64,000 nt of DNA from Candidatus Omnitrophota bacterium (GTDB lineage: Bacteria > Omnitrophota > Gorgyraeia > Zapsychrales > JANLHA01): positions 120,245 to 184,244 of the forward strand of contig JACKFJ010000002.1 in the NCBI GenBank assembly GCA_020632535.1. Direction: 5' to 3'. The translations under genes and the position numbers were made by a program. The number at the start of each line of letters is the position of its first letter. Within the stretch, counting starts at the first letter, position 1. This document shows, one piece after another, positions 5,405 through 64,000 of this stretch. Under the pieces are notes generated by a model. The model worked only from the letters and a program-made list of their open reading frames with translations, did not search any database and was not told the origin of the DNA.

Positions 5405-5570
5405 AATTTCCCCAATGATGTTTTGGATTATAACATTGTTAAAATGCCACTGCAACAAAGGTTAAAAGTATTTATTGATATAGGTAAAAACTTTTATCCA
5501 CCAAATTTAACTTTTATGTTATAAATATCCATAATTTAAAAACACCCTTATTTCTCTATATATAGCCCTG
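5405..5570. promoter_or_regulatory. Divergent intergenic region likely carrying promoters for mutS (+) and the coiled-coil operon (-)
   Basis: A 166-bp AT-rich spacer between divergent starts. Candidate sigma70-like hexamers on the plus strand: TTGATA at 5476-5481 and a TATAAAT-type -10 at ~5521-5527. Not verified. Confidence 0.3.
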
Positions 5571-8129: not shown

Positions 8130-8200
8130 TAATTAATTTTTACGGCTCAAAGTTCCTTCGGAACTGATTCGCCTTAAAAAATTAATTATCACTCCTTGAT
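8118..8200. terminator. Perfect 24-bp palindromic stem (8118-8141 / 8177-8200) with a 35-nt loop holding an inner hairpin; a putative bidirectional terminator or RNA processing site overlapping the mutS stop codon
   Basis: ATCAAGGAGTGATAATTAATTTTT pairs perfectly with AAAAATTAATTATCACTCCTTGAT. The inner hairpin is AGTTC-CTTCG-GAACT (8151-8165). The mutS stop TGA (8127-8129) lies inside the left arm. No U-tract follows, so the terminator call is tentative. Confidence 0.4.
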
Positions 8201-8216
8201 ATAACAATTTAAATTT

Positions 8217-8341
8217 AAGAAGTAAGAACAAGTCCGAAAGCGAATTGAACGCAGCCCCGATTCTGGCCTCCTTAGGCAAATGCCTAAGGAGACATCCACC
8301 GGGGATCGTTCATTGAGATTGAGGACTTGTTCTTACTTCTT
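8217..8341. repeat. Nested inverted-repeat element between mutS and mutL; a structured RNA, regulatory leader of mutL, or MITE-like insertion
   Basis: The outer arms are a perfect 19-bp inverted repeat: AAGAAGTAAGAACAAGTCC (8217-8235) and GGACTTGTTCTTACTTCTT (8323-8341), with an 87-nt spacer. Inside is CCCCG (8255-8259) paired with CGGGG (8300-8304). Inside that is a 10-bp stem CTCCTTAGGC/GCCTAAGGAG (8268-8277 / 8282-8291) with loop AAAT. It ends 14 nt before the mutL RBS. Confidence 0.6.
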
Positions 8342-8365
8342 AGCATAACTACTAAAAGGAAATTT

Positions 8366-10153: not shown

Positions 10154-10155
10154 TA

Positions 10156-13100
10156 TTATCCTTCCCGAACTGTTACCAAAAAAGCCACAATAATCAAAGC
10201 GACAAAATTATCAGTATAATCCCCTTCGGGACTCGAATGAATATTGGAAAACGAAGTTGATCCGACACGGCCAAGATTCTCTCGAAAACTTAATAACCAC
10301 GCTCGCAATTGTGCCCCCATCGCATTAAATGGTCTAATTTTCCAATACCGAATAATAATATAAACAATATATTGAATTTTAATATACGAAATAATCTTTA
10401 TTCGTCTTGGATCTTTAGCGCCTTGCATAGCACTGATTTGAGGAACATTGCTCAAACTCAAAACATACGTAATCAATGACCGCGCCGATAAAATCAAGCG
10501 TGAATAATATTCACGAATACGCGCGCTCAACAATAATAAAGAATTCCCTAACCACCCTCCAAAGTTTGATGTTGCGACACCTTGTATTTTTTCTGATCCT
10601 CCTGACGAAAAATGAGCAAAATCAAATGCTTGCTCACCAGCAACTTGCTGCGAAAGTTTCTGAACAGCCAATGTCAAAATAGAAAAACTTCTTAAACCAA
10701 CTCCATCAACAATCACATTCATTTTATAAACCAAATCACCGACCACGAAAAAGACATTGCCTTGACTCAAAACAAATCGAATTGGCACATAATATCGTCT
10801 CTCTTTATCCAGCTTGACTTCACGACCACGCGGCAGAACCGGCCAACGACTCCAATACAACCTTTCTGAAATTTGCTGACGTTTAACCCTAGTCATTACC
10901 ATTACTAAAGTACTTTGATCAAATGCTTTGTTTATATTATTTCTTGCTTGATCACCAATAACCGTCGAACTAGCCGAGTTATTATCTTGCCCATTCTTAC
11001 CATTGCCGTTCTTTCCATGCCCATTCTTACCATTACGGATCATATCCATCAAACCATTGCGCTTGCCGTTCTTAACGAATTCCATCGCATCATAAAAATC
11101 ATCCGTATGAACTTTGATCTCAAGATCATCAGTCATTCTGCGGCTTAACTTTAGATAAACAACCGCATAAAGAATCGCCAATTGACTGATGTCATCTAAT
11201 TTAGAAAAACTATCGTGCATTAAAATATCACCTGAGTCAGACAATACAATGACTTGTCCTCGAGTTGGATAAGGTGTTTGTGTTATTAAAATATTAAGAC
11301 GTTGCGGCAATGTCCCGTTGAATAAAAACGAATGATTAACAATTTTAGATACCTGATTAAGCTGTTTGGTGATGCCAAGCAAATCGAATTCTACGCTTAC
11401 CCACTGTCCATCGCGACGCTCGAGTGTCAGTTGCTCACTCGAATTCACAAAAACGCTACGCTGTGGCAATCGATTAGCCTTAAACTCCGTATTATTCGGC
11501 TCTCGATTTTCTTTATACCAACCATACAAAACATCCATGAAATCAATTTCGTCAATTGCTTCCATATTCTTACGACCATAAATGATATCGTGGTCTCCAT
11601 CAATTTCGACAAATAACGATCCAGTCAAATCCGCAAATCTTCTATTCGTCCGCGATGGTGTCGTTGGATCATCTTTGCCGACGACAACCCAAGAATTCAC
11701 TTTTCTTACATTCCCCACAATTTCGGCCAACTCCTCCTGCGAAAATCGAATTGAAGTAAAAAGCCAAGCTGTTTCAAGCTGTTGCGTAATATCATTTTCT
11801 TCGGTTGATGAAGCTTGAATCAATTTGTTGTAATAATTATTTGATAATCCGCTTGCCAACAATATTCTCTTCATCGAATGATTATGTGTAGCCATCTGAA
11901 AGATAAGCAAAGCGCCCCAACGTAAATTTGCTGAAAACACTGTTGCGACACGAAACAGCCAATTGATAAATGGTGGAACTGTTAGTAAATCCTCATAAGT
12001 CATCGACGTGAATAATATCGCTTGAACGTGTTCATCAACAGCTCCCCAAACCGCAGGATAACCATGAACTTGTAAAATACGATCCGTCTCTGTCCTTAAA
12101 AAGCTACGCAAAACAATCATTGTCGCAAGTGAATGCGGGACAAGATAAACTTTTTTTGCGGTCACGGTACTGTAAAACTGTATTAGCCACAACAAGAAGA
12201 ACTGCCGACGAAGAATTGGATCCGTTTGCCCAGCAAATTTTTTCAGAAATTCAATATCTTCCACGCTAAGTTTACGTTGACCGATTCTAGGCTCTTGCCC
12301 TTTCGTTAAGCTTAGAATTGTTTCTGCGGTAAACCATTGTTGCGGGATAACAATCGTATCGTTTGGATGCGCCTGTTTTAATTCGGCAAGACTAAAACTT
12401 TGATTTGCAGAAAGACCATGCAAGAAAATCAGAACATTGCCATTATGATCTCCTTCGCTAACTTCAACGACATGTTCAGGAACAATTTCCGCGTCTTGAT
12501 AATGCCGATGCAGTGATGCTCCAGCTTTTTCAACCATAAACTCCATTCGCTGCAAGAATAAATTAATCCATGTCAAGATCGCGATAAGGATGCTTCCCGC
12601 GATGACAAATGAAATAATACCATGCGTAAAATGAGCCAATAAAGGAAACATAACAACAATGGCAATTGTAATATTTACGGTTGTGATCAATGACAATAAC
12701 GATGCGGAATAAATACCACGCTCCTCATTAATGTCCAACGCAATCCATCCCAAAAGAACGGCCGTCAATACCGTCCCAACAAAGGATATGAGTCCACCGA
12801 ACAACGGCCATAACAAACCACCAACGAAAAATGGTATACCACGATAAAACAATTCCTGACGAAAAGCGGCTGGAGTTTGTGCCACAAACCACTCCACAGT
12901 ACGCGAAATCGCCTTATAAAGTTTCTTTTCTTTATTTAGTGATGATTCTCGAATTTCTTTCCAGAATGACAAACCCGAAATAATTTTACCGTAATTTTGC
13001 AAAATCATAACAGGAACAAACGTGATAAATAAAAACACAGAAACACCTGCCAAAATCAAAACAGACCGCCAGCGAGGAGTACGATTGGATACAGAATCTG

Positions 13101-16100
13101 TTGATAAATTAACAGCGGCTTCTTTTTTAGTTTGTGATTTTATTTTAGATAGCTTTCGAATCGCAGGAATATACTGCAAAGCATTGAAAATCGCGTGACT
13201 AAAAGCATTAGGGAGAATTAGTAAATAAACGGGAGAATAAATCACCTTTTGCAGCAGAGTAATGGGCTCTTGAGATATTTTGGACAATGAAATTTTCCAA
13301 CCCGACCAGAGCGCATAGGCACCAATCATATGCACTTCTAAAAGATAATTGCCATGCAGCCATATCCACGAAGAGATCAGCGGAGACAACATCATTCCCG
13401 CCCACACAAACCCAATACCAAATCCTTGACGGACTTTTTGACGCTTAAGTTCTGGAGTAAAATCCGTGACTCTTTCAAAATGACGATTCAAAAAGCGATT
13501 CGGACGAAACGTCTCAAAGAATTCAATAACCGGCGCGTAAAAAACTTCAATCATCCAATTTTGAGGTACGTAAATTAAAAACGTCTCGCGTAAATATTTG
13601 CGGCCAGCTTCATACGTCGCAGGCAAAATTAATGCCGACGAGGCGCGAAAATTATTCTTTTCTCTTAACCATTGCGAGTAAGCTGGCCAAACTCCTTTGA
13701 GCGATTCATCAGACGTGACCAAAGCAAAATGATTCGCTTTCGCCGCTAAGAAAACTTTGACTTCCTTTCCTGCGATACGCTCAAGACCCATGGTCGAAAC
13801 TGGCGGAACCACAACATCATCACCACCCATAAAAACGGCAAGACGAATATCTTTTAATTTTTCGGCAAGAACCTTTGCGCCATCTCTCATCAAATAATTT
13901 TGCTTAAAAATACGTCTGGCAAATTGTGCAATCGCATCCGTCGCCAAATTCGGCGTAATCCACACCCACTGTCTAAACTTGACTCCAATAATAAATTTCG
14001 TTAATTCATCTCTAAATTGCTTAACCCCTGCCCTCAATGCTTCATCTTTTAATCCTTTTGATAAATCCAAGTTCTTATAAACAAACAGTCTCACCTGCAA
14101 CGATTCCCTCGCAGATAAATATCGTTTTACCGTTTTTTTCCCATTAATAACATCGTTTAAAATCTTTATTTGCGCAGGCAAATCATTCATGCTTTGTCTG
14201 ATAAATTCATGAATTTCTGGATTTTGCATCATCGCGTCCATGATCTGCGCGAAGGGACCCGCCGTCATACTTTCAAAATCTTTAATGCCATTAGCAATTA
14301 ATAAAAACTCCTCAAATTCACGACCACCAATGAGTCCTCCCGGATTCGTGGAAGCAATTGCTTCCACCATACCAATCATCAATTCATTCATCGCTAAAGG
14401 TCGCGCGTCAGCATTTAAGAAATCTGCTAAATCTGAATGAACATTTTTATAAGCCACAAGCTTTGGCGCAATATTCTCAAGATGTGTATCCACCGGAGCC
14501 GCTAACATTGTGATTGACGCAATCACTTCCGGGTTTAAATCCGTCATAGCTAATGCCAATAAGAACAAAGCGCCACCCTGCGAATAACCAATAACATTGA
14601 CTGGTCCTAACTGCGCAGCAGCTTCAATTTCTTCTTTAATCCAACGTGAATAATCTACCAAAGAATAATTACGTCGAGCTTCTTGCCAATACATGACATC
14701 TAATGAATTACCTTCAGCAATTAAAACTTTTATAACACTCATGTCTAAATAAGGAATGAGATCAATGATATGCGGCGCCTTCCAGAAAAACGGAATAAAG
14801 AATACCCGAGACTGCGATACACCCTTTGCCTCATAATGACGCATTTCATAAGGCCGATCCTGTCTTTCTGATTTCTGACTCGGAGCCGTTTCCACTTGCG
14901 GAAAACTGTCTAATCCCTGACCAAAACTATAAGCCGCCGCCCATTGAATAATATTATCAATCGTGTTATCTAACGTCATTCCACGACGAAATGCTTCTCG
15001 CAAAATATTATCAATTGCCGATTTAAACTTATCTTCCACTTGCGCAATCGTCACTTGCAATTGCTCCGTTCCAGATTGATTCAAATTATCCATAATATCT
15101 CTCGCGTTCGAGAATGGATCACGAAACGCCATACCCAACAAAGCCTGCGATAAAATCTGAGCTTTTTTAAGAGCACTTTGCAATGTATTCTCTTTTCGCA
15201 TCAGAACAGGAATAATCTGTGTCATAAATGTAGCAACCAAGTCTTTGATTTTGTCTTCAGATTGCGCGACCAAGAATTCGGTTCTACGATTCTCATTCTT
15301 AGCCTGTGATCGTCCCGCCAATGCGCCAAGAATATAAACCAAATTGGCAGCTAAATCACTTTGATCTTCAGCATATTCTTCAGACAACACAATATATTCT
15401 GACTCCCCATCTTTAATTTGATAAATTGTTGGCACTATCAAAAAGTCATTGAAAGTTCCCATGCGAATATGATCGGAATATATAATTTTTCTAAAAACTT
15501 TGGCTAATTCAGAATCGTGATGCTCCAGCCAATACAACGCCACATCAATAGCCTTATGTGTTATCTGACTCTTAACGCGGCCAAGTCCCCCCTGACTCTC
15601 AATCACAAAACGCAAAGCATACATTGCGCGCGCGTACTGTTCGCTATGTTTTTGCGCAAACTTCAAAACACTTAGGACAATATCAATAACCAGTTGATTT
15701 GCCTCTCGACTTTGCGAATGTGTAAGAAAATAAACCAAATTTCCACCCGCTTCTTGTTCTTCTTCAATCATTTTCAAAACATCAAATGCAATAAATTCTG
15801 GATGTGACAAGATCCACGAAACACCTAAACTGTTATCTTTATTACCCAAAGACAAGATTTTTCTCAAAACCTGAACGACAACAGCGCGGTCATTAATTTT
15901 ATGCAATTTATAAAAATTACCAGCCCAATCAAGGCCATCATGGTCAATCATATTACGCGCGACACGGTAAAGTTCTTCAACCGCTTGTGAATCCGCAATC
16001 GACGATGAAGCAGATAAGCGACGTTCTTGCGGATACGGATGAATGTCCATAATCTTGCCTACTTTAATAGCATCAATGACCCTTTGCCAATATTGTGCAT

Positions 16101-19100
16101 GAAACAATTCACCATGTGCTCGCTTAAATTCAGAAACATGCTCCTGCGAAACATACCAAGAGGTCAAAATAATGTTTTCAAACTGCTCAGGAAAGAAATC
16201 GTACGGCCTAACCGTTACTCTCTCGCCAAGAGGTTTCATTTCATCATCATCATTACGCGCAGGTGGAATCTTTCGTGGATTCCAGAGAGCGATAGGGTCT
16301 AAATCATCGTAATCATATAAAACAACCCGACCAGTAGATGTAACACCATAATTTTTAGGAAAGAAATCACCTGCAAATAATCCAATACCAATAATTTCCT
16401 TAAGAGCTTGACCATAGTCATCAACTGTCCTGCGAAGTAATTCCGTGTCTATCGTTTCTTTTAAAAAAGTATCTAGCGGTGTAATCTTTAATTGAATAAA
16501 AAGATCTTTAATAATAATCGTCTCTCCATCGATAATTATAGAATCTGGAGCTCTTTGCTTTAATTCTTCAAGCACTTCTGGTGTAAAATCGGCCGTCGCA
16601 AATCGAACATTGGCATAAATCATCGCATCAAGAAGCCTTCCCGCACGATCCATTTCATGGACTAATTGATACTTTGTTTTAACCATTGCCTTCCCGCCTC
16701 GTATATCATAATCTTCTTTCTCAGAATGATCAGCGGCAACTTTTAGAACATATGGAAAATCATTGTTAAGAGTAAACGTGACCATCACCTTCCCCTTGGT
16801 TCCCTTTGCGAAGACAAATTTGCGCTCTGGATGAGTTAATTCCTCTGCCATAGATATTGTAATTTCAACCTTAGCCGGATAAACAAGCCCAATAGCGGCC
16901 AAGAGAAAAGCTCTATCCTTACCACCGGCGATCGTTTCAATAAACTGAATGATCTCTCGATAGTGCTGAATATCAACCATAAAATTCGCGCGTGTTGAAG
17001 CAAATAAAATACCACTGACATCATTATGGTTCATGAGTAAAGCATCAACGACAATACCAGTTTTGCCTTCTGGATGCGTTAGCGCAAAAACAAGTGGTAT
17101 CGTTTGTCCTTGAGAAATGATTCGACCCATCAGATAAGCTCTTTTGTTACGATAAAAAATTGGATTTAACATCTCAATCATATCGTATCGACGAATATTA
17201 TATTTAGCCATTTCTTGCTCAATGCGCTCTTGACTAAGTCGAATATCGCGATCTAAATCTTCAAACGGAACATTAAAATGAACCCTCATAAAGATTTGGC
17301 GAAGGACACTTTCTACCGAGATTTGATCATGATCACCCGAACTTAACAGGTACGATGTATATGGCTGATTTTGCAATGTGTATTGGATAGGAGTATCTTT
17401 ATGAAGACGTTCATCTTGATATTCGACGGGAATTCCCTTGTGAAGAAAAACACGACGAAAAGCCGAATCAAAGAATTGCATTCCAATATCATCGTCGTAA
17501 TCTTGCCGCAAGCGCTTTTCATAACGAATACGAAGATCTGCCCAAACTGCTGGGTCATCCATCTGTTTACCAAAAATCTTACCAATCTTCTGAACAACAA
17601 TCGTTACGGCTTGCGAACGAGATTTATTTCGATTTCTTTGTTCTCTCTGCATACGATTCCAATCACGAGTTTCAAAAGCCTTCTTGGCAACACGATGAGC
17701 ATTCTTGAAAGCACGAAATGAAGAACGAAATTCCTTATGAATGATACGGGCACTGCGATTCACCATTTCTTCATACATCCGTTCTTTAAAAACTGCCGAT
17801 GAGGAACTCAACACAGCTGTAATTAAGAATCCGCTCTTTCCTTCCAAAATTCTAATATCATCGAAAGCATACTCTCGTAACATATCATTAAAAGTCCAAC
17901 CCAAAAGATGAGCTCTTCCCGCATAAACAACCCCTGCCAATTTCGGCAAAACAATAATTATCCGACCAGAATTCTTTAAAATCCATGAAGCCTGCTTAAT
18001 AACTTGCGCTAAAATGTCAACATAGAAAATTATACCGTTATCGTCAGGCCCTGCTCCACGAGAGATTAAAGTCTTCCCAAAATCTGTCTGCATTGTGTTT
18101 TTATCAACAACTATATGATGCAATGACCTATTAAAAACAACTAAATCCATGGAGTGTTCCTCTAGCACTTTGCTTAAAGCGGTTGCATCGCCATACACAT
18201 GTGTTATTTTCTCTACGACTACTATCTGGTCACTTGCAAATAAATCCAACATTGTCATCCTATGCATGCCGCCAAGAAGTAAACCTTGTGCTGGAGCCGA
18301 ATTAGAAGCTGAACCCACATCAACCCCATTTCCTTGAAGCGAATAAAAAGCCGCTAATGTCTCAAACAACAATACGTCTTTATCATGATCCAAATAATCG
18401 ACAATTCTTTCCTCAATTGCTGACGAGGCCAAATTTCCTTTTCGTATTGCCTCGATACGTGCGTATAACTCAAATGCCGCCGCATTATCAGTAACTTCAT
18501 GAATCTTTACTTTGCCGTCGGGCATTATCACAACAATATACTCGTATGGCTCAACACTAATGCGGGGGAAAAGAAGATACGTAGTCTCTTTATTATCACG
18601 ATCCAGCCCCATACTTCTTCCCAGTTTCAAGAAAAAGAACCGTGGCAGAGAGGAGCCTTTAATCACAATCGTTAAAATATTTCTCTTAATCTGTGTTGTA
18701 AAGTTTTCAACGGCTTCCACAGCTTCATAATCAAAAATCTGAATCGGATTTGTTTCCTTAGGCTCAGCGAGATTGGTGTCGCGCAAATCGATATTACTTT
18801 CAAAACGCACTTTAATGCGCAATTCATTAGCCTTACGTCTGACAAAACGTTCAATCAATGTTGAACGCACTACAAAATCTTTAAGCCCGCCGGGTAAAAG
18901 CAATGGCGCGTTCTCAAGAATGACAATCTTCCCACCAATTTGTCGAGCAAATTTAATTAATAATGGGGCGTCATATGCTTGACGCAACTCTGCGGCTAAT
19001 CGCACAAAAAGGTCTTGGTTATTATCATTATAAAAAGCAATCCCCACGCCATCACCTTGGCGTGTCTCAACAATCTCGCCTGTTTTTTGATCAATAACCA

Positions 19101-49100: not shown

Positions 49101-52100
49101 ATAAATTGTGAGTAATGATAACGGTACCGGTCTCACCTAAGAACAAATTAAATTGTCCATCATGGCGATAAAGTTTTTCCATATAAACAGGTCCAAAACC
49201 GGTTTGCCAATCATTAAAGTGCAAGATGTCAACCTTAATCCCTAAAGCAACCGCAATATAAAATGGTGCCTTTGCTAATAAAATGGCTTCAATATATCCA
49301 TAAAGACTGTCGGTATATCGGCTACGAACAACTTGCGAGTACCGATTCGCATCAAGATCTTTTTCCGCCGGATACAATGATGGTTGAAGCAATGTCTGTA
49401 AAATCTTATCGGTCGGATAAAAGCGTAAATATCGAACACCGTTGACATCATTTTGTGTCACATTCATTGTCAACTGACCACTTCCCATCGGAACGGTAAT
49501 CGACGTTAGGACAATCCCTTGTGGCATCACAGGTTTTACGACCGGTGAATATTCAGCCTGATAACCCGGATTAATGACAAAGACCATATATCCAGCTTTT
49601 TCGAGAGCTTCAGCATATTCACGAATATAATCACCTTGACCACCCTTCATCGAAACACCCTCAGCAGCGACTAAAAACACAACTTTCTTACCGGCCGCCC
49701 GAACAGCGACAACCTGATTTTGTATATCCTCAATCAAAATCTTTGACTGTTCATCATGGCCTAATTGACGAACATAAACATGACCATTACCATATGGCAG
49801 TTCTGCCCAAACTTGACGATTTCCAAATCCTTCAAAAGCCACTGTAAATTCAAAATCATCACGAGCTTCAACACGAATCGCATAAACCGCGCGACCATTT
49901 TCAGTGTTTCTAACCCAGTTCATCGGTTCATCTCGCCATTGACCTGTACGATTCGAACGCAAAATCACATGACGTTGTTCACCCATACCACGCGCGGCTT
50001 TATCATCAGTCGCGTAAGCGACTCCCTCAATATTAACCTGTTGACCTGCAGCAACGTGATGAACGCGTTCGGCCAAAAACCCACCATTTTGAACCATTTT
50101 CTTGAAATTAAATTCCGAATAAGATTCTTCCTGAATGCGGATATTAGCCAAAGCCCAATCTTGAGCATGCTGACCCGTCGAACTCATACTTTCAACATGT
50201 CTAATATTTACAGTGCTATCAAAAATATTTTTGGATAAATTAAATCGATGATCCCATTCATCCACAGCGCACATACCGGCAACACTAACACTATTATTCA
50301 AAACAAATTGTTTAATCGCTTCTAAATCCCAATCTTGAACTTTCTGCGCGACTGGTTTATGCACAAATCGACTTTGATAATGAATTGTTTGAACGCGAAC
50401 ATTTAAGTCATTTAAAACATCCATCATTTCATTTAATATTTCAGCAAATGTCCGCACCTGCATCGCGTTGCGATAAACGTAGGCACCCACCAACGTACCG
50501 TCAGCCATAAACCCGCGCAACGCGAGAAATTCACTATCATTGTTATTTGCACTCATTCGTAACATATATACGTCCGCCTGAGTTTGTTCTACCATAACGA
50601 TCACCCATCCCGCTTTAATGACAAAACTATTAGCTGGATATTGAGCTTGCATGGAGTAGTTGTTATCCCAAACATATTGTTTTGTGAAAGCATCCTTGTA
50701 ATAATCCGGACGGGCAGATTGAACTGCAGGGATATACGTATACTTCTCTTCTGAATCAATTACACGATAAGAAGCGATTTGACCAATTTCGAGTTCATCT
50801 AAAGCCGTCATGGTTTCAAACCATTGATTGACCTGAAGAACATAGTTTAAGGATGCGTTCGGAAGACGGCTGACAAGACGGCTATGAACAGCGGCGCTTT
50901 GTCCAACATGAAGAAGATGATCGATTTCGTCGGTAATAATTAATTTGAGGGATTCATAAAGGTGCGGTAAATATGCTGCGCTTTCTTGTTCTTCAATGAA
51001 TTCTGGTGGCGCGCGTAAAGCACGATACGAAAGGTAAATCTCGCCATGACGAACATAAGCGATTTCGCCAGCGTCACCGTGTAAAATCAACTTGATAATT
51101 TTGTGAGTCGATTCGCCAAACCAGACCAATTTATCATTTTGTGTTTGCTGAACAAAAGCATAATTGATAGCATCCGCAAATTCTTTCGCAGGAAAATCTT
51201 TCAAATCAGCCGGCAACTTACCCAACTTACTCATGGTCACTTTACCAGTGCTCGGATAAATGCGAACCTTAACATTTAGTTCAACACGCGGCAATCCACG
51301 AAGCGCGGCAACATAAAGCGGGAAGCCATCTTGATTAATCGCGCTGGAGGCGGCATTGCTATGACCAGAACCAACAGACTTAATTTGTGTAGCGTAATTA
51401 TCTAATTGCTTACGGAAAGAATCCACATCCATCGCATTAACGCCGATCGCAGCAATGACATTTGCAGAATGTTGTAGAACTTCTTTAACCGTTCCTTCAA
51501 AAATACCGCCGGCAACAATAATCGGCAATTGGGCATTAGCTTGTCTGACCGCTGTGAGGAAGTTTTCTGCAGCATCCGCAGAACTTTTCTTTAATTGACC
51601 AAACGGCTTAAATAACACGACATCGACGTCTTTGGCCACAGTATTGGCAACTTCACTTTGAACCATTGTCATATCAAGCGGCAAGTTCAACGTCAATTCA
51701 GAGATAATCACGACATTCGCATTATTGCGGCGAATATTAGCAACGATTTCTTTAGTCCAGTTAGAACCGATAAGAATGTTAGCACCTTTGCGATTAGCTT
51801 CTAAGGCGCTGACTTCATCATTGACGAAGAACGCGACGATTGCCGTTGCATAATTTACATCTTGACGTAATGATTCCAAAACATCCATACGATCTAACGA
51901 AGGAATAATTTGACGATCAAGAAGTTCTTTTGCAAAATTCACAAGAAGCGTGGAATCAAGTGCCGCATAACCTTTACCGCCGGTAGTTGTGTGTAACCCA
52001 GCTTCAGCGCGGAAAGATTGTAATACTTCAATCACCTGTTGACGATTATAAACACTAGAAGATACACGATTCTTGACTTGCTCGACACGCTGATCATTTT

Positions 52101-55100
52101 CCAAAGCCCATTTGACAGTTTCAAGTTCATCACCATTGTTGACCGCAGAGCTGGCAGATGTCGAATTTTTGGTTTGAATATATAACGGTTCATAGCTGCC
52201 ACGTTTTAGAAGCACCGACGTTTCATGCACTTGTTCCACATCGCCCCACATATCATGATCTTGTGTGCTATAAACAACAACATTAACTGTCTCAACGATA
52301 CGATCAACTCTGATCATGTCCGGTGTATATGAACCTTGTTGCAAGTTTTGAACATAAGCAATCTCACGCTGCATAATCGCGCCAATTTCATACTTAGAAA
52401 CAGACTGTAAAGCTTTTTGAAGTTCTTCAGCGCGGATCAAATGAATACCTTTTTCCTCTAAGATTTTACGATATTCGACGGCGTATGGTCGAAAGACCGA
52501 TTCAGTCGTTTCGTAATATAATGGGTCTTTGCTCGCCATCTCACGTTCACGTGCTGCATCTCTCCTCGCACGGATGTACATGATAAATCCAGCAACCACA
52601 CCAATAGCAACAAGCACAATTAAAACCATTTGACCGATTGTTAAATAAGCCGCGATAGCGGTGATTGCAGAAGATGATTTGATATCGGTCAAATTCTTAA
52701 CTTTGCTATCCGTACTTGCGCTAGAAGAATTTTCTTCACCCTTCTTATTTAAGGCTTTGATCTTTTCTTCTTCCTTTTTGATCTTTTCTGCGGCAACCCA
52801 CTGATTAATTTGTTCCATTTCCTTTTCTGCAGATTTTGAATCTTTTCCAAATGCGGCAAAGAAGAGAAGGCCGGCAATAAGTACAGGAGATAAAATACTC
52901 AAAAAGATCAACACTGAAACATTTAAAATCGTCGCTAAAAATACTGCTGGCAAAATCCATGCGGCAATAATACCGCCTGTTACAGCCAAAGTGTATTTCG
53001 TATTCTTAACATAACCATTTTCATTTGGACGATTAACACGAGTCTTAGCACCCAAATAAGCGATCTTAATAAAGATGCGGCTGCCCCAAACGCGTTCTTC
53101 AACCAATGTGCTATACAAGAAATCACGGAACCCTGTCAATGTCCATTTATTCACAGTCAAAACATTAGTAGCCCCGCTAGTAACCAAGGCAAAAATTGCA
53201 ACGACCATCAAAACGAAATTGATCAACTGCACTAAAGGATTGTTCCAATTGACAATACCAGTCACCACCATAAAGATGATTGAAGCAAAGAAGACTAAAA
53301 GACCTTTCCACCAACCAAACATAGCAAACAAATCCATACCCTTTAAGTGACGACGGGATTCGCCATTTATCGTCCCTGCTTTAATGCCAAACAGACGAGC
53401 GAGACCATCAAGCTTAAAGAATGCTAACCAACCATTAAATTTCGAAACAAACGTATTATATGCAAATGTACCCGTCAAGAATGACGTTGACGCAAGCATA
53501 TAGACTAAGGTAATTGCTGGACCAAACGGTGTCGTACTTAATAAAGCAAAGAACCAGCCGAGTTGACCAAGCATACCGACAAAGCCGTCGAATGGAAATG
53601 CTTTCTTAAACTTTGACAACATGATAAAGCCGAAGAGCATCACAATCGGAGCAATAATTAATAATGCTGTCGAAATCCAAAGCGAAGCAAATATATGCAA
53701 AATAACAGCGAATATTTCTAAGCCCACCCCAATTCCAAAAACAACTTTACCTGCATTCTCAGTACGATTAACATTCAAACTCAACACCTTGGTATTTTCA
53801 TAACGGGTCTCAACACTCCATTTACTTAAGTTTGGCTCTTTGGCGGTACGAATAAAGCTAAAACTTTCATTCGATGCATAAAAGACACCCTTAACGAAAC
53901 TGGCAATAAGATTGACATAGAATGGGAAGCCGGCCATCGTTTCAATCAGAGCCATCCAAATCGCCTTCAAGAAGCTACCCGTCAATCGTAATTGACGTAA
54001 GAAGTTATGCAAATTGATCGCTTGCATCAAGAATGTACTGACGCCGGCGAATAAGAGAATCGGCGTTAAAAACGCGAAAGAACTAAATGTCGCGCCAACC
54101 GGCAAGAAGATCAAGAGTAAGACAGCATTAATCGCAGTAAAGTAATGAGCAAAGAACCCTAAGTGAGCAAGCTTCACATCGTAACCAATATCTTTATTAG
54201 TGAAGACTTCAAATTGCCCACGATCCATCATAAAGCGAGTAACGTTAAAAGCGTAACGGGTTTCAGTAGCGTACAAGGATTCAGCCAAGAGTGAAGGACG
54301 GCCCCATTCAAACGTAAGCCAATCTACCTGTGTCGAAAGAACATTCGGATAAGAACGCTGCATAACTAAGAACGCGCCAGAGTCTTCACCCGGAGGTGTT
54401 AATAATGTATCGCCAGCCGCCGGTGTGATCAAAGCCTTACCGTAGAACGTTGTCATACCACGACGTGCTCTTTGAACATCAGACGTAAACGTTTCTTGAG
54501 AAACTTTGTATAAACGGGTAACAGGGAAAGCCCAATTGCTAGATGCCCAAATGCGCATGTTCGGGTTAACAACAACAATTTCCGGATTGCGGCCAACTAA
54601 AGAAGCCCATGATGTTGTATAAATGTTTTGCCCCGGATACACACGCACATGTGCGTCTAAGTTCATGCTACGTCCGTATGTTGCCCAGAGATTGATAACA
54701 ATATTACTGTTCTTCACACCCAAAACTGGATTATCTTTCGAGCGATCGTAGAACGGTAAGTAGATATCGTTCTTGATCGTTTCACGAATAACATATGTCA
54801 CGTGCATGGCTTGTTGCCAAGCGGCGATCCAAGCCGTCGGAAGCGTGCCAGTATTACGAGTACGAATGAAATCAACAATATTTTCACGACGGAACTGATC
54901 AAAAGTATCCGCAAGCGTAACCAAATCTTTAGCGCTAATCGTTTTTCCTTCACCACTCCAGAGTCCTTGTTCTTTTAAGAACGCAAGAAGGTTGGCAACT
55001 AAAGGAACTTGTGATTCGGCAAAGAAACCGGCAAATGGTCCTTCTTCTAATTTATATTGTCCATCATTTGTTTTACCCATCAATTGACCCCAGAGTAAAC

Positions 55101-58100
55101 CTTCACTGAATATGCCACGAACTTTTTCATTGGCTAATGCGCGATACATTTCATATCCTTGCATAAAGACTTCGCGAACGGCGACATCACGAACTTGTAC
55201 GGCACCTTCCGCATAAGCAGCGGTCAATGTCCGATACTTAGCTAAAACGTCATTTAATGCTCTAGCGTATTCGAAATCCGCATTTTCGTTAGCAAGATAA
55301 ATATGCATTTCATTGATGTTCTTAGCTTGACTACGGGCAACAGAAATGTTAGCCGGACGAACTTCATTCATCAATTCTTCAAGAGCCGTGATGACCATCA
55401 TAATTTCTTCCTGTGACAACCCTTGCTCAAATAAACGAATCAATTTTTGATTCATATTAGAAAATTCATCAGAGCCCTTGAATTCCTTGATAATCAATTG
55501 CAATTTGTCAGCGGATATTCTGCCGGCCAAAAGATTGATTTGATTATTGAATTCTTCCTTAAAACTACGAATCAAATAACCCAAGAGCGTGGTGTTGCTG
55601 ATATGACGCAAATCTTCACGATTCTTAATCAAATAATCTCTATCGCTTTTATTTAAATCCTTTATACCTGCGACAATTTCAACAACATCCAAATCTGTTT
55701 GTTTAGTTCCTTCGATAGATTGATAAGCAGCGGCAACGCGAGCAGCAGCAATAATGAATGCTTTTTCTTCAAGGCTTAAATTGACAGCCTTATTTACTAA
55801 AGCATTAAGATCTTCAACGCGGACTATCGATTCCACAATGGTAGTAATATCAGCTTGCTTCTTCTTATACTCAGCCAAAGTAATTCTCATGTTTTTCTTA
55901 TTACGAGCCAAAATCATACCCATCACAAGATTGATGAGTTTAAACTTATCTGGAATATCAAATGAACCGGATTGCATATCATTTTCAAAAATATGCGCGA
56001 AAAGTTCACCGTATGCGGCAACGTGACTGGATGTCGGCTGTAAATGTTCCACAACATCGGTGGCCGGTTTCATCTGGCTTAATGAGAAGAATTGCTGATA
56101 AAAGACTTCATAACCTTTTTCGGTATCAGGAAGCATAAACGTAAAGGCATTCGGATTAAGAATGACTTTGACATTCGCATCATAAACTTGCTTGCTGATA
56201 CGGCCTTCTTCTTTTTCGATTAAAAGCATGCGTAAGAAATAGTTCTCGATGGTTTCACCATTAGGCGTGATCGCGCCATAGCGGGCTTCGATTTCGAGAA
56301 ATTCTTGATACCATTTCGTATAGAATGCGCCATTCTTAATACCATTCATATCTCTATTTAATGCCTTCAATAACCAGATCGAACGGGCCGTTTTGCTCCA
56401 TGTCGTAGTATTCAAAAGCAAGTAACTCTTCACAACAGTAAATATATGCATAAAAGTAATTAAGGTCGGAACAAACATAAGCACGAATAATCCAGCTGTG
56501 ATCGCAAACCCTAATGTGCCAAAATGGATAACAGCAAATTTCCAGAAGACAAAATGGGTAATCCAACCTAAGTACAATGTTGTTGCAGTAAATGTTGCAA
56601 CCCATAACCATTTTTCAGATGAGAAACGAACCTTACCAGCCAAAAGCGTAGGTAATCCAGCCAAGAACATCATAAAGATATACCCTAAAGCCGCATAACG
56701 GGTAGCAACAATAATATATCCGCCGCCCAAAATACCAACCAAAGCTAAAGCGATCACTAACATACGCAAAGCTTTTGAATGAATGGCCCAGAAGTTTTCC
56801 AAGCTTCTAAATTTGCCCGGAATCTTCATGACAAAGCGAGCAATCAAAGCACCGAAGAACATCGGACCCAAGATACGGATACCAAACAGATGAATAATGC
56901 CGCGCTTATTATTTGTCATTTCATCTGCTTTAGCTGCATATGGAGACTTTTCTGCGCTTAACTTCATCGTTTCTTGTTTAAGCAAGCTTGTAAACGGGAT
57001 CACTGTTTTTCTAGCGTGATCCAAAATGTCAGAATATCCCAACTTTGTTTTTAAGAAAGCACCGTACAGCTCTTTATGCTTGGCAAGAATTTCTTCTAAA
57101 CGAACTGTAATCGCTTCGAATTTCTTTTCATTGGAAGCTTTATTGTCGGCACCAAATTCATGATCAAACATCGCAGTAATGACACCATTAAATTGAACCA
57201 AACCTTGCTCACCCTTGTTTGCCAAACGGTCAAAAAGATCATGCACGTCAGTATCAACAAGGATCTCATACAAATGAAATTCAGCTTGGGCTTGTTCGAG
57301 CGGCGGCTGTGTAACTAATTTCCATAAACCAGCACCAAAATGAAGCGGCGCATACCAATTATTCAAATGGAATAAAGCCTTCCAAAAACGAGCATAAGTG
57401 TGAATATGCTCCATAACAAAAGCGGCGTCCTTACCTATAGAAAGATTTTTAGCCGCTTCGCGAACAATAAACAGCGTTAATGGATAGTTGAATGTTGTCC
57501 CACCCAATGAATATTCATTGGTTTCGCTCGGAGGAGATTGTAACAATTTCACAAAGATATGTTCAAAAACCGTTGTTGCTTCAACATTCGGAGTTGTCGG
57601 ATACGGATTATACTTTGCGGTTAAAACTTCGCCAGCTTTAGCGATGCGAGACGGATACAAGGTGAAGAATCTCTTTAATTCGCCAACAACGCTAACAAAG
57701 AGCTCATTGATAAATGCAGCATTTTTAATTGTGCTCTTTGAATAAGCATTAAATGTCTTATTAAGAACCTCATCAAAAAGTGTTCTGGCGATGCGAGTCT
57801 TAACACTTTCGACAAAGAGTCTCATGCTCGCTCTTTGGCCGTGACGTGCAACATACGCCTGAGCTTGACCAGCAAACACAGCATCGGTTTCATCACCAAA
57901 GTATTGTGTATCAATTAAATGCGCCAAAACACGGACAGCTGGTGTTGGCAAGAGCGTGTTTAAATCTTCGCGGATATCTTGACCTGCCGCCAATGCCTGA
58001 AGCGTACGATTTTCGACTTCGATAACAAGTGCTTTCAATAACTGTGCCCAACGCAAACTGTCATTATTAATATTGATCTGCAAACGACCATTAATACTTT

Positions 58101-63954: not shown

Positions 63955-64000
63955 AACAGCCGCATTGATTCCTTCAACAGAACCCGCGTTTAAGAAATTA

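What the first reader, a model, noticed from the sequence alone, without database searches (positions are those of the whole stretch)
10156..64000. A >53.8-kb single gene (at least 17,932 codons), still open at the window edge
One uninterrupted minus-strand reading frame fills 84% of the window. The first in-window ATG (63954) has no RBS and no signal peptide. The 15 codons upstream of it (to position 64000) continue in frame without a stop. The annotated start is therefore almost certainly internal, and the gene is even larger. Bacterial proteins of this size are extremely rare; known examples are mostly Ig-like repeat adhesins or a few candidate-phylum giants.
Basis: seen in the sequence. 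Interest (0 to 1): 0.95.

Follow-up and report, generated by a model that had tools for sequence, protein, structure and literature searches.

The report
Giant multi-enzyme gene of Omnitrophota
The window holds a real, uninterrupted gene of at least 61.8 kb (≥20,590 codons, start still not reached) from an uncultured Omnitrophota bacterium; it encodes a membrane-anchored chain of unrelated enzymes and regulators, a kind of giant gene already documented as common in that phylum, so it is a new member of a known class with a few unusual details.

Summary
The minus-strand frame 10156–63999 has 17,947 sense codons plus TAA and is open at the window edge. A second assembly (Logan SRR12358675, 100% identical over 12 kb) calls the same gene at 20,590 residues, still 5′-truncated.

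MutS/MutL neighbours and synteny place the window in Candidatus Omnitrophota, where ≥10,000-aa proteins are already catalogued in thousands. It is not a repeat adhesin:
- It is almost non-repetitive and about 80% has no detectable family.
- Whole enzymes are embedded in it: a GlgA-like glycosyltransferase, a degenerate long RSH (RelA/SpoT) unit with ACT, three XRE HTH modules, LOG, a complete AceK with catalytic residues intact, and two α/β-hydrolases.
- About 22 hydrophobic helices, seven pairs of them hairpins, interrupt the chain.

This matches the published "multi-enzyme" class of Omnitrophota giants.

Syntenic relatives share only three landmark blocks in the same order. One relative splits the locus into 27,475-aa and 3,183-aa genes.

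Two features are not discussed in the two Omnitrophota giant-protein preprints I text-searched: near-total cysteine exclusion (2 of 17,947) and an intact AceK.

Verdict: new member of a known kind. Function is inferred, not shown.

The parts
10156..63999 (-). In-window part of the giant ORF. 17,947 sense codons plus TAA stop at 10156-10158. The 5' end is beyond the window.
   Evidence: extension to >=20,590 codons
58534..58590 (-). First strong hydrophobic (TM-like) segment, aa 1804-1822. aa 1-1803 have none.
   Evidence: Kyte-Doolittle scans
56458..56898 (-). TM cluster, aa 2368-2514 (about 4 helices, including hairpin 2413/2436).
52573..54123 (-). TM cluster, aa 3293-3809 (about 8 helices, including hairpins 3419/3442, 3566/3589 and 3671/3696).
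51358..52086 (-). Landmark block A, aa 3972-4214. It is the best-conserved piece shared with the 27,475-aa ORF of the syntenic relative L026 (E 2e-86). The fold is unassigned; there are only sub-threshold TIM-barrel/TMP-TENI hints.
47860..49683 (-). Complete GlgA-like glycosyltransferase (GT5 + GT1), aa 4773-5380. The WEPGG and KTGGL motifs are kept. The N-terminal K-x-GGL motif is shifted to MKGGQGD.
   Evidence: Pfam; NCBIfam (end-to-end coverage but far below cutoffs); PDB; motifs
46063..46230 (-). Hydrophobic segment(s), aa 5924-5979 (1-3 helices, number ambiguous).
44587..44748 (-). Weak Pol-beta-type nucleotidyltransferase hit, aa 6418-6471, below the Pfam cutoff.
43822..43950 (-). TM hairpin, aa 6684-6726.
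38632..41064 (-). Internal duplication of an unannotated ~270-aa unit: aa 7646-7916 and 8184-8456, 46% identical.
   Evidence: self-BLASTP; DNA repeats D2/D3
33004..35505 (-). Landmark block B, aa 9499-10332: a whole long-RSH (RelA/SpoT-like) unit ending in ACT-type domains. Catalytic motifs are degenerate (HD->FD, E-x-Q-I-R-T->DIIVMN). Shared with L001, L002 and P0075.
   Evidence: Pfam; NCBIfam; PDB; motifs; relatives; AF2 + Foldseek (low-confidence model)
27439..31587 (-). Array of three XRE-type HTH modules (aa 10805-10861, 11549-11612, 12128-12187) inside diverged ~560-830-aa repeats. It also holds a recent 200-aa duplication (aa 10985-11184 and 11216-11415, 72% identical).
   Evidence: Pfam; self-BLASTP; DNA repeat D1; PADLOC hits only these HTH parts
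26227..26367 (-). TM hairpin, aa 12545-12591.
25012..25518 (-). LOG / SLOG (TIGR00730) module, aa 12828-12996, with motifs PGGFGSLNE and GGGPGTM.
   Evidence: Pfam; NCBIfam (102 bits, above the 96.35 cutoff); PDB; motifs
22675..22950 (-). TPR repeats, aa 13684-13775 (weak).
16006..17775 (-). Complete AceK (isocitrate dehydrogenase kinase/phosphatase) unit, aa 15409-15998, with regulatory and kinase domains. Residues equivalent to E. coli K336, D457, K461, N462, D475 and D477 are conserved. It has 0 Cys.
   Evidence: Pfam (E 2e-70 and 5e-60); NCBIfam (466 bits against a 488 cutoff, profile positions 5-577 of 582); PDB alignment; homologues; Cys count
13651..14841 (-). First alpha/beta-hydrolase module, aa 16387-16783, weakly PhaC-like. 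Nucleophile elbow GYSQG.
   Evidence: Pfam; NCBIfam; motif
12565..13056 (-). C-terminal TM cluster, aa 16982-17145 (about 4-5 helices, including hairpin 17104/17127).
11500..12492 (-). Second alpha/beta-hydrolase module, aa ~17170-17500. The HG, HSxA, G..D..TP and H[DN] motifs are invariant in P0073, P0074 and P0077.
   Evidence: exhaustive HMMER; alignment; motif positions
10159..10947 (-). Landmark block C, the conserved C-terminal tail, aa 17685-17947. It carries the motif ISYxKIQY..IRxWKLxPFN..ARLREWL and a hydrophobic extreme C-terminus. Shared with L001, L002, P0075 and the stand-alone 257-aa P0076. The fold is unknown.
   Evidence: AF2 model unusable (pLDDT 33.5)
8366..10153 (+). MutL, the convergent neighbour. 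It is the synteny anchor used to identify the taxon and the second assembly.
5571..8129 (+). MutS, a synteny anchor.

Best explanation
SHOWN. This is one genuine protein-coding gene of an uncultured Candidatus Omnitrophota bacterium.
- It is at least 61.8 kb long, and only its 3' 53.8 kb lie in the window.
- It belongs to the documented class of Omnitrophota giant proteins of the 'multi-enzyme' type.
- The chain is essentially non-repetitive. Complete, unrelated enzymes and regulators are strung in one frame between long stretches with no detectable family.
- These modules are: a GlgA-like glycosyltransferase, a degenerate long-RSH unit with ACT, three XRE HTH modules, LOG, an intact-looking AceK, and two alpha/beta-hydrolases with Ser-Asp-His motifs.
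- About 22 hydrophobic helices interrupt the chain.

INFERRED.
- The helices, seven pairs of which form hairpins with 4-9-residue loops, staple the polypeptide to the inner membrane.
- Most of the mass, including the nucleotide-dependent modules, lies on the cytoplasmic face.
- The protein would then act as a membrane-tethered scaffold that co-localises carbon-storage and carbon-flux enzymes with regulatory activities in a very small cell.
- The gene grows and changes by insertion, duplication and in-frame fusion of whole modules between three conserved landmarks (block A, the RSH-like block, the C-terminal tail).
- Module-to-module chemistry, actual topology and possible proteolytic processing are not established.
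For: The ORF is real:
- P(no stop) about 1e-322, uniform codon-position GC, thousands of off-frame stops.
- no collapsible repeats.
- a second assembly is 100% identical over 12,071 nt and,590 aa.

Taxon and locus:
- MutL is 77-79% and MutS 81% identical to Omnitrophota MAGs.
- The TonB-receptor/DUF6580/MutS/MutL synteny is conserved in L002 and L026.

Architecture:
- Pfam, NCBIfam and PDB hits.
- The protein is non-repetitive.
- TM segments at 1.2 per kAA. This agrees with a mean of 22 helices reported for >=10-kAA Omnitrophota proteins.
- PF08323 and PF00534 are the commonest 'sugar module' domains of such giants.

Modules look functional:
- AceK catalytic and ATP-binding residues are conserved.
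- LOG motif present and TIGR00730 cutoff passed.
- GlgA C-terminal motifs present.
- Hydrolase triads present.

Selection: dN/dS is 0.29-0.48 between the L001 and L002 orthologues.

Modular evolution:
- Only three landmark blocks are shared with relatives. They keep the same order but lie 5,285 vs ~2,457 aa and 7,353 vs 1,364 aa apart.
- Relatives carry other enzymes: acyltransferase, 2H phosphodiesterase and HAD.
- The window's gene has internal duplications.

Cytoplasmic-face hint:
- The 36 hairpin-loop residues hold 1 K/R and 0 D/E.
- The outer flanks hold 32 K/R against 24 expected.
- All recognisable modules use cytoplasmic substrates or DNA (established knowledge of AceK, GlgA, LOG, RSH and XRE HTH proteins).
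Against: - Topology rests on a hydropathy scan and a marginal charge bias (P about 0.06-0.07 each). Several single helices would flip sides, and the number of helices at aa 5924-5979 is ambiguous.
- Near-total cysteine exclusion looks like an exported-protein signature. The counts are 2 of 17,947 overall and 0 in the AceK unit, against a median of 5 in 72 stand-alone AceKs. In this genome MutS and MutL have about 1% Cys, while the TonB-receptor fragment has 0.
- The N-terminus is unseen, so a signal peptide or an N-terminal peptidase cannot be excluded.
- About 80% of the chain has no assignable function.
- The RSH unit has lost its catalytic motifs.
- GlgA scores far below family cutoffs.
- No expression or peptide data exist for this gene.
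- In relative L026 the locus is split into two genes, so a single continuous chain is not obligatory for the family.
Confidence: 0.7

Rival explanations
1. Exported surface or 'coat' effector. Most of the chain is translocated and displayed outside the cell, or delivered into an attached host or prey cell. The enzyme modules act on host or prey molecules during episymbiosis or predation.
For: - Cysteine exclusion is a family trait. It is typical of exported proteins in bacteria without disulfide machinery (own knowledge).
- The literature proposes extracellular coat or cell-wall attack roles for Omnitrophota giants.
- It even places multi-Pfam metabolic content on the outer face for SP+TM giants.
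- The glyoxylate shunt is reported absent from 176 complete Omnitrophota genomes, so AceK has no obvious native role.
Against: - No signal peptide is visible, though the N-terminus is missing.
- AceK, GlgA-like, LOG and RSH-like modules need ATP, GTP or sugar nucleotides, and HTH modules need DNA.
- Hairpins with 4-9-residue loops leave both flanks on the same side.
- No secretion or pilus genes lie in the 10 kb of flank visible here.
- No adhesion, glycoside hydrolase or peptidase domains were detected in the window.
Confidence: 0.2
2. Polyprotein. The giant ORF is translated once and then cut into separate enzymes. It would be a protein-level operon rather than one working megaprotein.
For: - Complete enzymes are embedded end to end: AceK covers residues 12-571 of 578, and GlgA is covered across the whole profile.
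- In L026 the homologous chain exists as two separate genes.
- The C-tail also exists as a stand-alone 257-aa protein, P0076.
- West-Roberts et al. suggest that N-terminal C39 or S8 peptidases may cleave giants.
Against: - No peptidase domain was found in the 17,947 in-window residues.
- No recurring linker or cleavage motif was noticed.
- The TM staples between modules would be pointless for soluble products.
- This reading is not exclusive of the main explanation.
Confidence: 0.12
3. Artefact or non-gene. The frame results from a chimeric or collapsed assembly, or the region is a string of separate genes or pseudogenes.
For: - Both available assemblies are probably short-read and may derive from the same library.
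- Relative L001 shows a frame break inside its orthologue.
Against: - A 53.8-kb stop-free frame cannot arise by chance or by chimerism.
- Composition and codon usage are uniform.
- There are no long repeats.
- A second assembler gives the identical sequence and a longer open frame.
- Relatives have >=3,330-aa and 27,475-aa ORFs at the same locus.
- dN/dS is below 0.5 in the family.
- Shine-Dalgarno motifs are not enriched before internal ATGs: 3.6% against 4.8% background.
Confidence: 0.02
4. Ig-like or RTX-type repeat adhesin, the usual kind of bacterial giant protein.
For: Only its size and its low cysteine content.
Against: - Self-BLASTP finds only three local duplications.
- TRF finds two trivial arrays.
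- There are no Ig, cadherin, RTX, dockerin or TSP3 hits.
- The composition is rich in L, A, I and E.
Confidence: 0.01

Closest known systems
Omnitrophota 'multi-enzyme metabolic cluster' giant proteins (class 1 of Nielsen & Lui 2026, bioRxiv 10.64898/2026.06.07.730766)
   Same: - Omnitrophota host and length over 10 kAA.
- Many distinct Pfam families tile one polypeptide, and none dominates.
- The starch-synthase (PF08323) plus GT1 (PF00534) pair is present.
- TM helices occur at about 1 per kAA.
- The sequence is essentially unique; in that study 80% of clusters are singletons.
- Most of the chain is unannotated.
   Different: - A text search of that paper found no mention of AceK (term or 'isocitrate'), of the LOG Pfam accession PF03641, or of 'cysteine'. 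The term 'RelA' gave only word-start matches such as 'relaxed'.
- The flanks here are MutS/MutL and a B12-riboswitch TonB receptor, not the T2SS/pilus and GH2 genes reported around the largest giants.
- I could not check their 916-protein catalogue for these domains.
Archaeovorins, type sequence the 39,678-aa protein of Velamenicoccus archaeovorus LiM (West-Roberts et al. 2023, bioRxiv 10.1101/2023.11.21.568195; Seymour et al. 2023, PMC10066038)
   Same: - Giant, TM-studded and poorly conserved Omnitrophota protein.
- GT5 glycogen-synthase-like, GT1 and TPR domains.
- Embedded central-metabolism enzymes are also reported for that group.
   Different: - No HEAT, SecA_DEAD, methyltransferase, NUDIX, glycoside hydrolase, SLT or peptidase hits were found in the 17,947 in-window residues.
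- Length over 30 kAA is not established here.
- The N-terminal features cannot be tested.
Stand-alone AceK (E. coli isocitrate dehydrogenase kinase/phosphatase; PDB 3LC6/3EPS)
   Same: The embedded unit aligns over residues 12-571 of 578 and keeps the Gly-rich loop, K336, D457, K461, N462, D475 and D477.
   Different: - It is at most 35% identical to any of the 72 homologues found, all of which are 570-630-aa stand-alone proteins.
- It scores 466 bits, under the 488-bit NCBIfam equivalog cutoff.
- It has no Cys.
- It is embedded in a giant chain, not in an aceBAK cluster as the best hit P0001 is.
Repeat-type giant adhesins (Chlorobium chlorochromatii large ORFs, RTX/BIg adhesins such as SiiE and LapA)
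   Same: Size class and low cysteine content.
   Different: Those are built of tens to hundreds of tandem Ig-like or RTX repeats. This protein is non-repetitive and enzyme-bearing.
Long RSH enzymes (RelA/SpoT/Rel)
   Same: - Block aa 9499-10332 has the overall order: helical HD-like region, synthetase-like region, then C-terminal ACT-type domains.
- All 24 significant Foldseek PDB matches are RelA, Rel or SpoT.
   Different: - The HD motif and the synthetase E-x-Q-I-R-T motif are lost.
- The Pfam hit covers only half of the profile and lies just under the cutoff.
- It is probably a pseudo-enzyme or sensor module.

Membership tests
Omnitrophota long-protein (>=10 kAA) class | Single predicted protein of at least 10,000 aa | tested here: met
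   17,947 aa in the window. A gene call of 20,590 aa on identical sequence.
Omnitrophota long-protein (>=10 kAA) class | Encoded on an Omnitrophota chromosome | tested here: met
   MutL is 77-79% and MutS 81% identical to Omnitrophota MAGs. Gene order is conserved. No marker-gene phylogeny was made.
Omnitrophota long-protein (>=10 kAA) class | Transmembrane helices and/or a signal peptide (94% of the catalogue) | tested here: met
   22 strong hydrophobic segments by hydropathy scan. A signal peptide cannot be tested because the N-terminus lies outside the window. No dedicated TM predictor was available.
Class 1 'multi-enzyme metabolic cluster' (Nielsen & Lui 2026) | Many distinct Pfam families tile the polypeptide, with none dominating by copy number | tested here: met
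   At least 10 distinct families. The highest copy number is three, for the XRE HTH modules.
Archaeovorin (West-Roberts 2023) | GT5 / GT1 glycosyltransferase and TPR domains | tested here: met
Archaeovorin (West-Roberts 2023) | HEAT repeats, SecA_DEAD, methyltransferase, NUDIX, glycoside hydrolase or peptidase domains | tested here: not met
   None at Pfam E<=0.05 in 1,000-aa tiles over all in-window residues, and none in NCBIfam. The unseen N-terminal part (at least 2,643 aa) could still hold some.
Archaeovorin (West-Roberts 2023) | Gene over 90 kb, with an N-terminal region carrying a C39/S8 peptidase near a signal peptide | not testable with these tools
   The 5' end is missing. Only >=61.8 kb is established.
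Dockerin-type giant proteins | Multiple dockerin and TSP3 repeats | tested here: not met
   No such Pfam hits.
Ig-like / RTX repeat adhesins | Long tandem arrays of homologous repeats | tested here: not met
AceK (module aa 15409-15998) | Regulatory plus kinase domains over the full length, with conserved catalytic residues | tested here: met
   Pfam E 2e-70 and 5e-60. PDB alignment covers residues 12-571 of 578 with K336, D457, K461, N462, D475 and D477 conserved. The roles of these residues are from my own knowledge of the AceK structure papers.
AceK (module aa 15409-15998) | Score at or above the NCBIfam equivalog cutoff; glyoxylate-shunt context | tested here: not met
   466 bits against a 488 cutoff. 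No aceA or aceB in the window. The shunt is reported absent from 176 Omnitrophota genomes.
Long RSH (RelA/SpoT) (module aa 9499-10332) | HD hydrolase and synthetase catalytic motifs | tested here: not met
   HD->FD and E-x-Q-I-R-T->DIIVMN. Pfam 26.6 bits against a 27 cutoff, covering half of the profile.
Long RSH (RelA/SpoT) (module aa 9499-10332) | Overall domain order and fold | tested here: inconclusive
   TIGR00691 E 7e-16. An ACT hit lies ~450 aa downstream. The top 24 Foldseek matches are all RSH, but the model has pLDDT 49 and TM-scores are at most 0.46.
LOG / TIGR00730 (module aa 12828-12996) | PGGxGTxxE motif and family score cutoff | tested here: met
   PGGFGSLNE (T->S). 102 bits against a 96.35 cutoff. 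PDB E 4e-27.
GlgA glycogen synthase (module aa 4773-5380) | Family score cutoff and the K-x-G-G-L donor-binding motif | tested here: not met
   The profile is covered end to end but scores 50 + 113 bits against a 328 cutoff. The N-terminal motif is shifted to MKGGQGD. The C-terminal WEPGG and KTGGL motifs are kept. It is GlgA-like, not an equivalog.

The most novel reading that the evidence does not exclude
The chain may be a cysteine-free 'mega-effector'. Cysteine has been purged even from conserved catalytic-motif positions: FEPCG->WEPGG in the GlgA unit, the PhaC-type lipase-box Cys->Ser, and 0 Cys in AceK. The phylum is reported to lack the glyoxylate shunt that AceK normally controls. Together these could mean that the chain, or pieces of it, is threaded unfolded out of the tiny episymbiont into an attached host or prey cell. 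There an intact isocitrate-dehydrogenase kinase/phosphatase, a nucleotide hydrolase (LOG), a glucan synthase and hydrolases would rewire the host's central carbon flux. That would be a new mode of metabolic hijacking by a single giant polypeptide.
Probability: 0.08. Interest if true: 0.85.

Novelty: new member of a known kind. Interest (0 to 1): 0.38.

Why it matters
Giant genes of Omnitrophota are among the largest known in any organism, and their function remains an open question. This example does not change the picture. It does offer unusually clean handles for experiments:
- A complete AceK that looks active, a LOG unit and two hydrolases, each of which can be expressed and assayed separately.
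- Three conserved landmark blocks that define a small gene family at a fixed chromosomal locus next to mutS-mutL. One member is fused and another is split, which is a natural experiment on whether continuity of the chain matters.
- An extreme cysteine exclusion that could be used across the thousands of catalogued giants to predict which face of the membrane they occupy.

Tried and rejected
- **Word-indexed homologue searches.** Searches with aa 1-1200 and with the RSH-like block found nothing. Relatives of the latter demonstrably exist (L001, L002, P0075), so that index is insensitive for these proteins and its negatives carry little weight.
- **Exact look-ups.** MutL from the TTG start and MutS both failed. 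MutL from ATG 8366 succeeded.
- **Metagenome scans.** Both JGI scans (N-terminal 700 aa, and the RSH-block alignment) returned no relatives. Yet L026, a JGI contig, was later reached through P0075, so those scans miss divergent members.
- **Reading the extra sequence.** The extra 7.9 kb of the Logan contig and the rest of the 27,475-aa ORF could not be read. Flanks are limited to 10 kb, and proteins over 5,000 aa cannot be looked up.
- **Structure prediction.** The C-terminal tail model was unusable (pLDDT 33.5). The RSH-block model was poor (pLDDT 49) and is used only as supporting evidence.
- **Defence-system reading.** Considered because HTH, SLOG, NTase and RSH-like modules co-occur. Rejected because PADLOC matches only the generic HTH parts.
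- **Avoidance of stop-adjacent codons as the cause of Cys loss.** Rejected because Trp (1.4%) and Tyr (3.7%) are at ordinary levels.
- **Internal translation starts.** Shine-Dalgarno motifs are not enriched before in-frame ATGs. The genome seems SD-poor, so this test is weak.
- **Junction with MutL.** Promoter and terminator scans gave nothing above shuffled expectation.
- **Block A.** Only sub-threshold TIM-barrel hints, so it is left unassigned.
- **Sample origin.** SRR12358675 is not mentioned in the searchable literature.

Full report
**1. The observation**

A six-frame scan shows one stop-free stretch on the minus strand from 10156 to 63999, 53,844 nt long. It translates to 17,947 residues followed by a single stop.

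- The stop is TAA at 10156-10158. It lies two bases from the TAA of the convergent MutL gene at 10151-10153.
- The first in-window ATG is at 63954, and 15 sense codons precede it up to the window edge.
- Chance cannot produce this. From base composition the probability of no stop in 17,947 codons is about 1e-322. The two other frames of the same strand carry 49-121 stops per 1,000 codons in every block.
- The codon-position GC pattern is the same in all 18 blocks and matches MutS and MutL. Codon frequencies correlate with the neighbours at 0.84.
- G+C is flat at 0.38-0.43.
- There are no long near-identical DNA repeats that could mislead an assembler. The best is 300 nt at 79%.

**2. The gene is larger than the window**

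An exact look-up of MutL, using ATG 8366 as its start, found a Logan contig from run SRR12358675. The contig is 63,846 bp long. Next to MutL it carries a minus-strand gene called at 20,590 residues that runs to the contig end.

- The 12,071 nt that I could read are 100% identical to window 8083-20153. The arithmetic (61,773 nt = 20,591 codons) shows the call fills the contig.
- The frame therefore stays open at least 7,928 nt beyond the window and is still 5'-truncated.
- I could not read that extra sequence.
The conclusion it supported is nevertheless right.

**3. Whose gene it is**

The left flank encodes, in order:
- a TonB-dependent receptor behind an AdoCbl riboswitch;
- a DUF6580 protein;
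- two unannotated ORFs;
- MutS and MutL.

This is ordinary chromosomal content of a diderm bacterium.

A scan of one genome per GTDB species with MutL returned 22 loci. Those whose records name a phylum are labelled Candidatus Omnitrophota. Others, including the two closest, are labelled 'uncultured Planctomycetales', 'uncultured bacterium' or simply 'bacterium'. The best matches are 79% and 77% identical. MutS is 81% identical to the same genomes. The source genome itself is not among those representatives.

**4. What is known about such genes**

- Giant ORFs over 20 kb were reported in 77 of 116 Velamenicoccia genomes and in other Omnitrophota classes. Peptides of the 39,678-aa protein of V. 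archaeovorus increased in attached cells (PMC10066038).
- West-Roberts et al. describe Omnitrophota proteins of up to 85,804 aa. They have many TM helices, divergent SecA_DEAD domains and N-terminal C39/S8 peptidases. The authors define 'Archaeovorins' and 'Dockerin-type' giants.
- Nielsen & Lui report 3,650 proteins of >=10 kAA, the longest 147,155 aa, and 94% have TM helices or a signal peptide. 80% of sequence clusters are singletons. One of their classes is 'multi-enzyme metabolic clusters', in which starch-synthase (PF08323) and GT1 (PF00534) domains are among the commonest.

The phenomenon is therefore documented and, within this phylum, common.

**5. Anatomy of this protein**

It is not a repeat protein. 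Self-BLASTP finds only three local duplications:
- aa 7646-7916 and 8184-8456, 46% identical;
- aa 10985-11184 and 11216-11415, 72% identical;
- a diverged threefold HTH-containing unit between aa ~10,670 and 12,220.

Pfam, NCBIfam and PDB sequence searches over the whole chain, including 1,000-aa tiles, recognise the following:

| Module | Residues (aa) | Note |
|---|---|---|
| GlgA-like GT5+GT1 unit | 4773-5380 | complete |
| Pol-beta nucleotidyltransferase | ~6418 | weak hit |
| Long-RSH-like unit with ACT | 9499-10332 | |
| XRE HTH modules | ~10805, ~11549, ~12128 | three copies |
| LOG/SLOG unit | 12828-12996 | |
| TPR repeats | ~13700 | weak |
| AceK | 15409-15998 | complete |
| alpha/beta-hydrolase, PhaC-like | 16387-16783 | |

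Alignment with the few relatives reveals a second alpha/beta-hydrolase at aa ~17170-17500. Together these modules cover under 20% of the residues. The rest matches nothing.

A hydropathy scan gives 22 strong TM-like segments in about seven clusters, or 1.2 per kAA. This fits the published density.

**6. Are the embedded enzymes alive?**

- **AceK.** It aligns with E. coli AceK over residues 12-571 of 578. It keeps the Gly-rich loop, K336, D457, K461, N462, D475 and D477 (the roles of these residues are from my own knowledge of the AceK structures). It scores 466 bits, just under the 488-bit equivalog cutoff.
- **LOG.** It has PGGFGSLNE and passes the TIGR00730 cutoff.
- **Hydrolases.** Both have nucleophile-elbow, Asp and His motifs.
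- **GlgA-like unit.** It keeps the C-terminal WEPGG and KTGGL motifs, but its N-terminal K-x-GGL motif is shifted and it scores far below family cutoffs.
- **RSH-like unit.** It has lost both the HD motif and the synthetase E-x-Q-I-R-T motif. A low-confidence AF2 model (pLDDT 49) still retrieves only RelA, Rel and SpoT structures as its 24 significant PDB matches, followed by tandem-ACT proteins. I read it as a pseudo-enzyme or sensor module.

**7. Relatives and evolution**

All 72 detectable AceK homologues are stand-alone proteins of 570-630 aa, at most 35% identical. The best sits in a malate synthase/isocitrate lyase cluster.

An exhaustive HMMER search of 1.84 billion representatives with the C-terminal 1,047 aa found only six proteins. 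One of them, P0075 (3,183 aa), led to a 206,687-bp JGI contig (L026) with full synteny:
- The shared order is TonB receptor, DUF6580, two ORFs, MutS, MutL.
- Convergent to MutL is P0075. It is preceded, after a 109-nt gap and in another frame, by an ORF of 27,475 aa.

L001 and L002, the closest GTDB genomes, also have a long ORF convergent to MutL. In L002 the frame continues across the point where L026 is split.

Only three landmark blocks are shared with the window's gene, in the same order:
- block A, aa 3972-4214, E 2e-86;
- the RSH-like block, about 27-35% identical;
- the C-terminal tail of ~260 aa.

The spacing between them differs greatly:

| Interval | Window | L026 |
|---|---|---|
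| Block A to RSH-like block | 5,285 aa | ~2,457 aa |
| RSH-like block to C-tail | 7,353 aa | 1,364 aa |

The GlgA-like unit lies in the window-specific stretch between block A and the RSH-like block. The HTH array, LOG, AceK and hydrolase units lie in the stretch between the RSH-like block and the C-tail. Relatives instead carry acyltransferase, 2H-phosphodiesterase or HAD modules.

The genomes are roughly equidistant by MutS and MutL (77-86% identity). The RSH block, however, is 82% identical between L001 and L002 but about 35% identical between the window and L001 or L002. dN/dS between L001 and L002 is 0.29-0.48. That indicates purifying but relaxed selection.

The picture is of a gene at a fixed locus that evolves fast by insertion, duplication, fusion and fission of whole modules.

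**8. How it most likely works**

*Shown:* one frame, whole enzymes embedded in it, hydrophobic helices between them, and a family with conserved landmarks.

*Inferred:* the helices staple the chain to the inner membrane.
- Seven helix pairs are hairpins with loops of 4-9 residues. These loops hold 1 K/R and 0 D/E in 36 residues.
- Their outer flanks hold 32 K/R against 24 expected.
- By the positive-inside rule this puts the long soluble stretches on the cytoplasmic face. That is where AceK, LOG and the GlgA-like and RSH-like units would find ATP, nucleotides and sugar nucleotides, and where the HTH modules would find DNA.
- This corresponds to hypothesis (iii) of Nielsen & Lui.
- The statistics are marginal (P about 0.06-0.07) and several single helices could flip sides, so the topology is a hypothesis.

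**9. The main unexplained feature**

The chain has 2 cysteines in 17,947 residues.
- At the 0.64% frequency of the neighbouring proteins, P is about 1e-47.
- The AceK unit has none, whereas 72 stand-alone AceKs have a median of 5 and a minimum of 1.
- The GlgA motif FEPCG reads WEPGG, and the PhaC-type lipase box has Ser at the nucleophile position (the canonical Cys-containing forms of both motifs are from my own knowledge).
- Family relatives are equally Cys-poor, at 0-0.2%.
- Non-homologous large ORFs at the same position in other Omnitrophota are not, at 0.4-1.5%.
- In this genome MutS and MutL have about 1% Cys. The exported TonB-receptor fragment and the 872-aa neighbour have none.

Cysteine exclusion is a known trait of exported proteins in bacteria without disulfide machinery (own knowledge). 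It therefore pulls toward the rival in which the chain is displayed outside or delivered to a host.

Neither preprint mentions cysteine. The reported absence of the glyoxylate shunt from 176 complete Omnitrophota genomes also leaves AceK without its usual role. I keep the exported or effector reading as the main rival (0.2) and its boldest version as the novel case.

**10. Rejected readings**

- Repeat adhesin: there are no repeats.
- Defence system: PADLOC hits only the HTH parts.
- Assembly artefact or string of genes: two assemblies agree, the coding signal is uniform, relatives have long ORFs at the same locus, and SD motifs are not enriched before internal ATGs.
- Polyprotein processing: this remains possible and is not exclusive. 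No peptidase was seen in the window, but the N-terminus is missing, and one relative has the chain as two genes.

**11. Verdict**

The ORF is real and even larger than reported. It belongs to the described class of Omnitrophota giant multi-enzyme, membrane-associated proteins, so it is a new member of a known kind.

It fails most domain criteria of 'Archaeovorins' in the part visible here, and all criteria of dockerin-type giants and repeat adhesins.

Its particular content (intact AceK, LOG, a degenerate RSH unit, an HTH array) and its cysteine exclusion are leads worth a survey. They do not by themselves overturn anything. Interest is moderate at 0.38.

Noticed in passing
window 1259-1398 (-) and 2-1164 (-): An AdoCbl (B12) riboswitch (Rfam RF01482, 51.5 bits, just above the gathering score of 50) lies directly upstream of a TonB-dependent receptor (Plug domain) that runs off the left edge. 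This is a BtuB-like B12 uptake unit.
   Followed up: partly
window 1459-2022 (-); L026 28393-28896: A DUF6580 ORF sits immediately upstream of the B12 riboswitch and receptor. The same adjacency (DUF6580 next to the Plug receptor) is conserved in the syntenic JGI contig. This hints at a B12-related role for this family of unknown function.
   Followed up: no
window 2840-5458 (-): The 872-aa neighbour has no cysteine at all and only one weak TPR hit. Its counterpart in L002 is 1,076 aa with 10 Cys and aligns only in parts (60% over the last ~400 aa, 41% over the first ~165). It is another fast-evolving, Cys-free protein at this locus.
   Followed up: partly
window 10151-10158: MutL and the giant gene converge with only 2 nt between their TAA stops. 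No terminator-like hairpin above shuffled expectation is found nearby, so each transcript would have to end inside the other gene.
   Followed up: partly
window 8327 vs 8366 (+): The mechanical ORF list starts MutL at TTG 8327. The protein starting at ATG 8366 is the one found verbatim in a public assembly, and relatives align only from residue ~9-14 onward. ATG 8366 is therefore the likely start.
   Followed up: yes
L001 13646-13826 (-): In the closest GTDB relative the orthologous giant gene is broken. Two ORFs in different frames overlap by ~180 nt, and together they match the single L002 ORF. This is either a sequencing frameshift in a short-read MAG or a real disruption.
   Followed up: partly
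L026 1-9891 (+) and 10001-19552 (+): The syntenic JGI contig (3300056831 Ga0558120_00651, 206,687 bp) has a 27,475-aa ORF. It is followed after 109 nt, in another frame, by the 3,183-aa P0075. This is a natural split version of the chain. Only the last 3,296 aa of the large ORF could be read.
   Followed up: partly
L003, L010, L013, L019 (about 11,700-21,800 in each locus): More distant Omnitrophota (MutL 52-58% identical) also have ORFs of 1,000 to over 2,800 aa convergent to mutL. These show no detectable similarity to the window's gene and have normal Cys content. The position next to mutS-mutL seems to be a recurrent home for large, fast-changing genes.
   Followed up: partly
window ~55,000-64,000 (aa 1-3000 of the in-window ORF): GC3 is higher in the 5'-most 3,000 in-window codons (0.37-0.43) than in the rest (0.32-0.35), and window G+C rises from ~0.39 to 0.43 toward the right edge. 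This could be a compositional gradient or a different origin for that part.
   Followed up: no
window 10990-11034 (-), aa ~17,655-17,670: A short 15-nt tandem repeat encodes a GKNG(H/N)GKNG low-complexity stretch just before the conserved C-terminal tail. It may be a flexible linker.
   Followed up: no
P0076 (257 aa): The conserved C-terminal tail of the giant also exists as a stand-alone 257-aa protein in public data. It is therefore an autonomous domain of unknown fold. Its genomic context was not examined.
   Followed up: no
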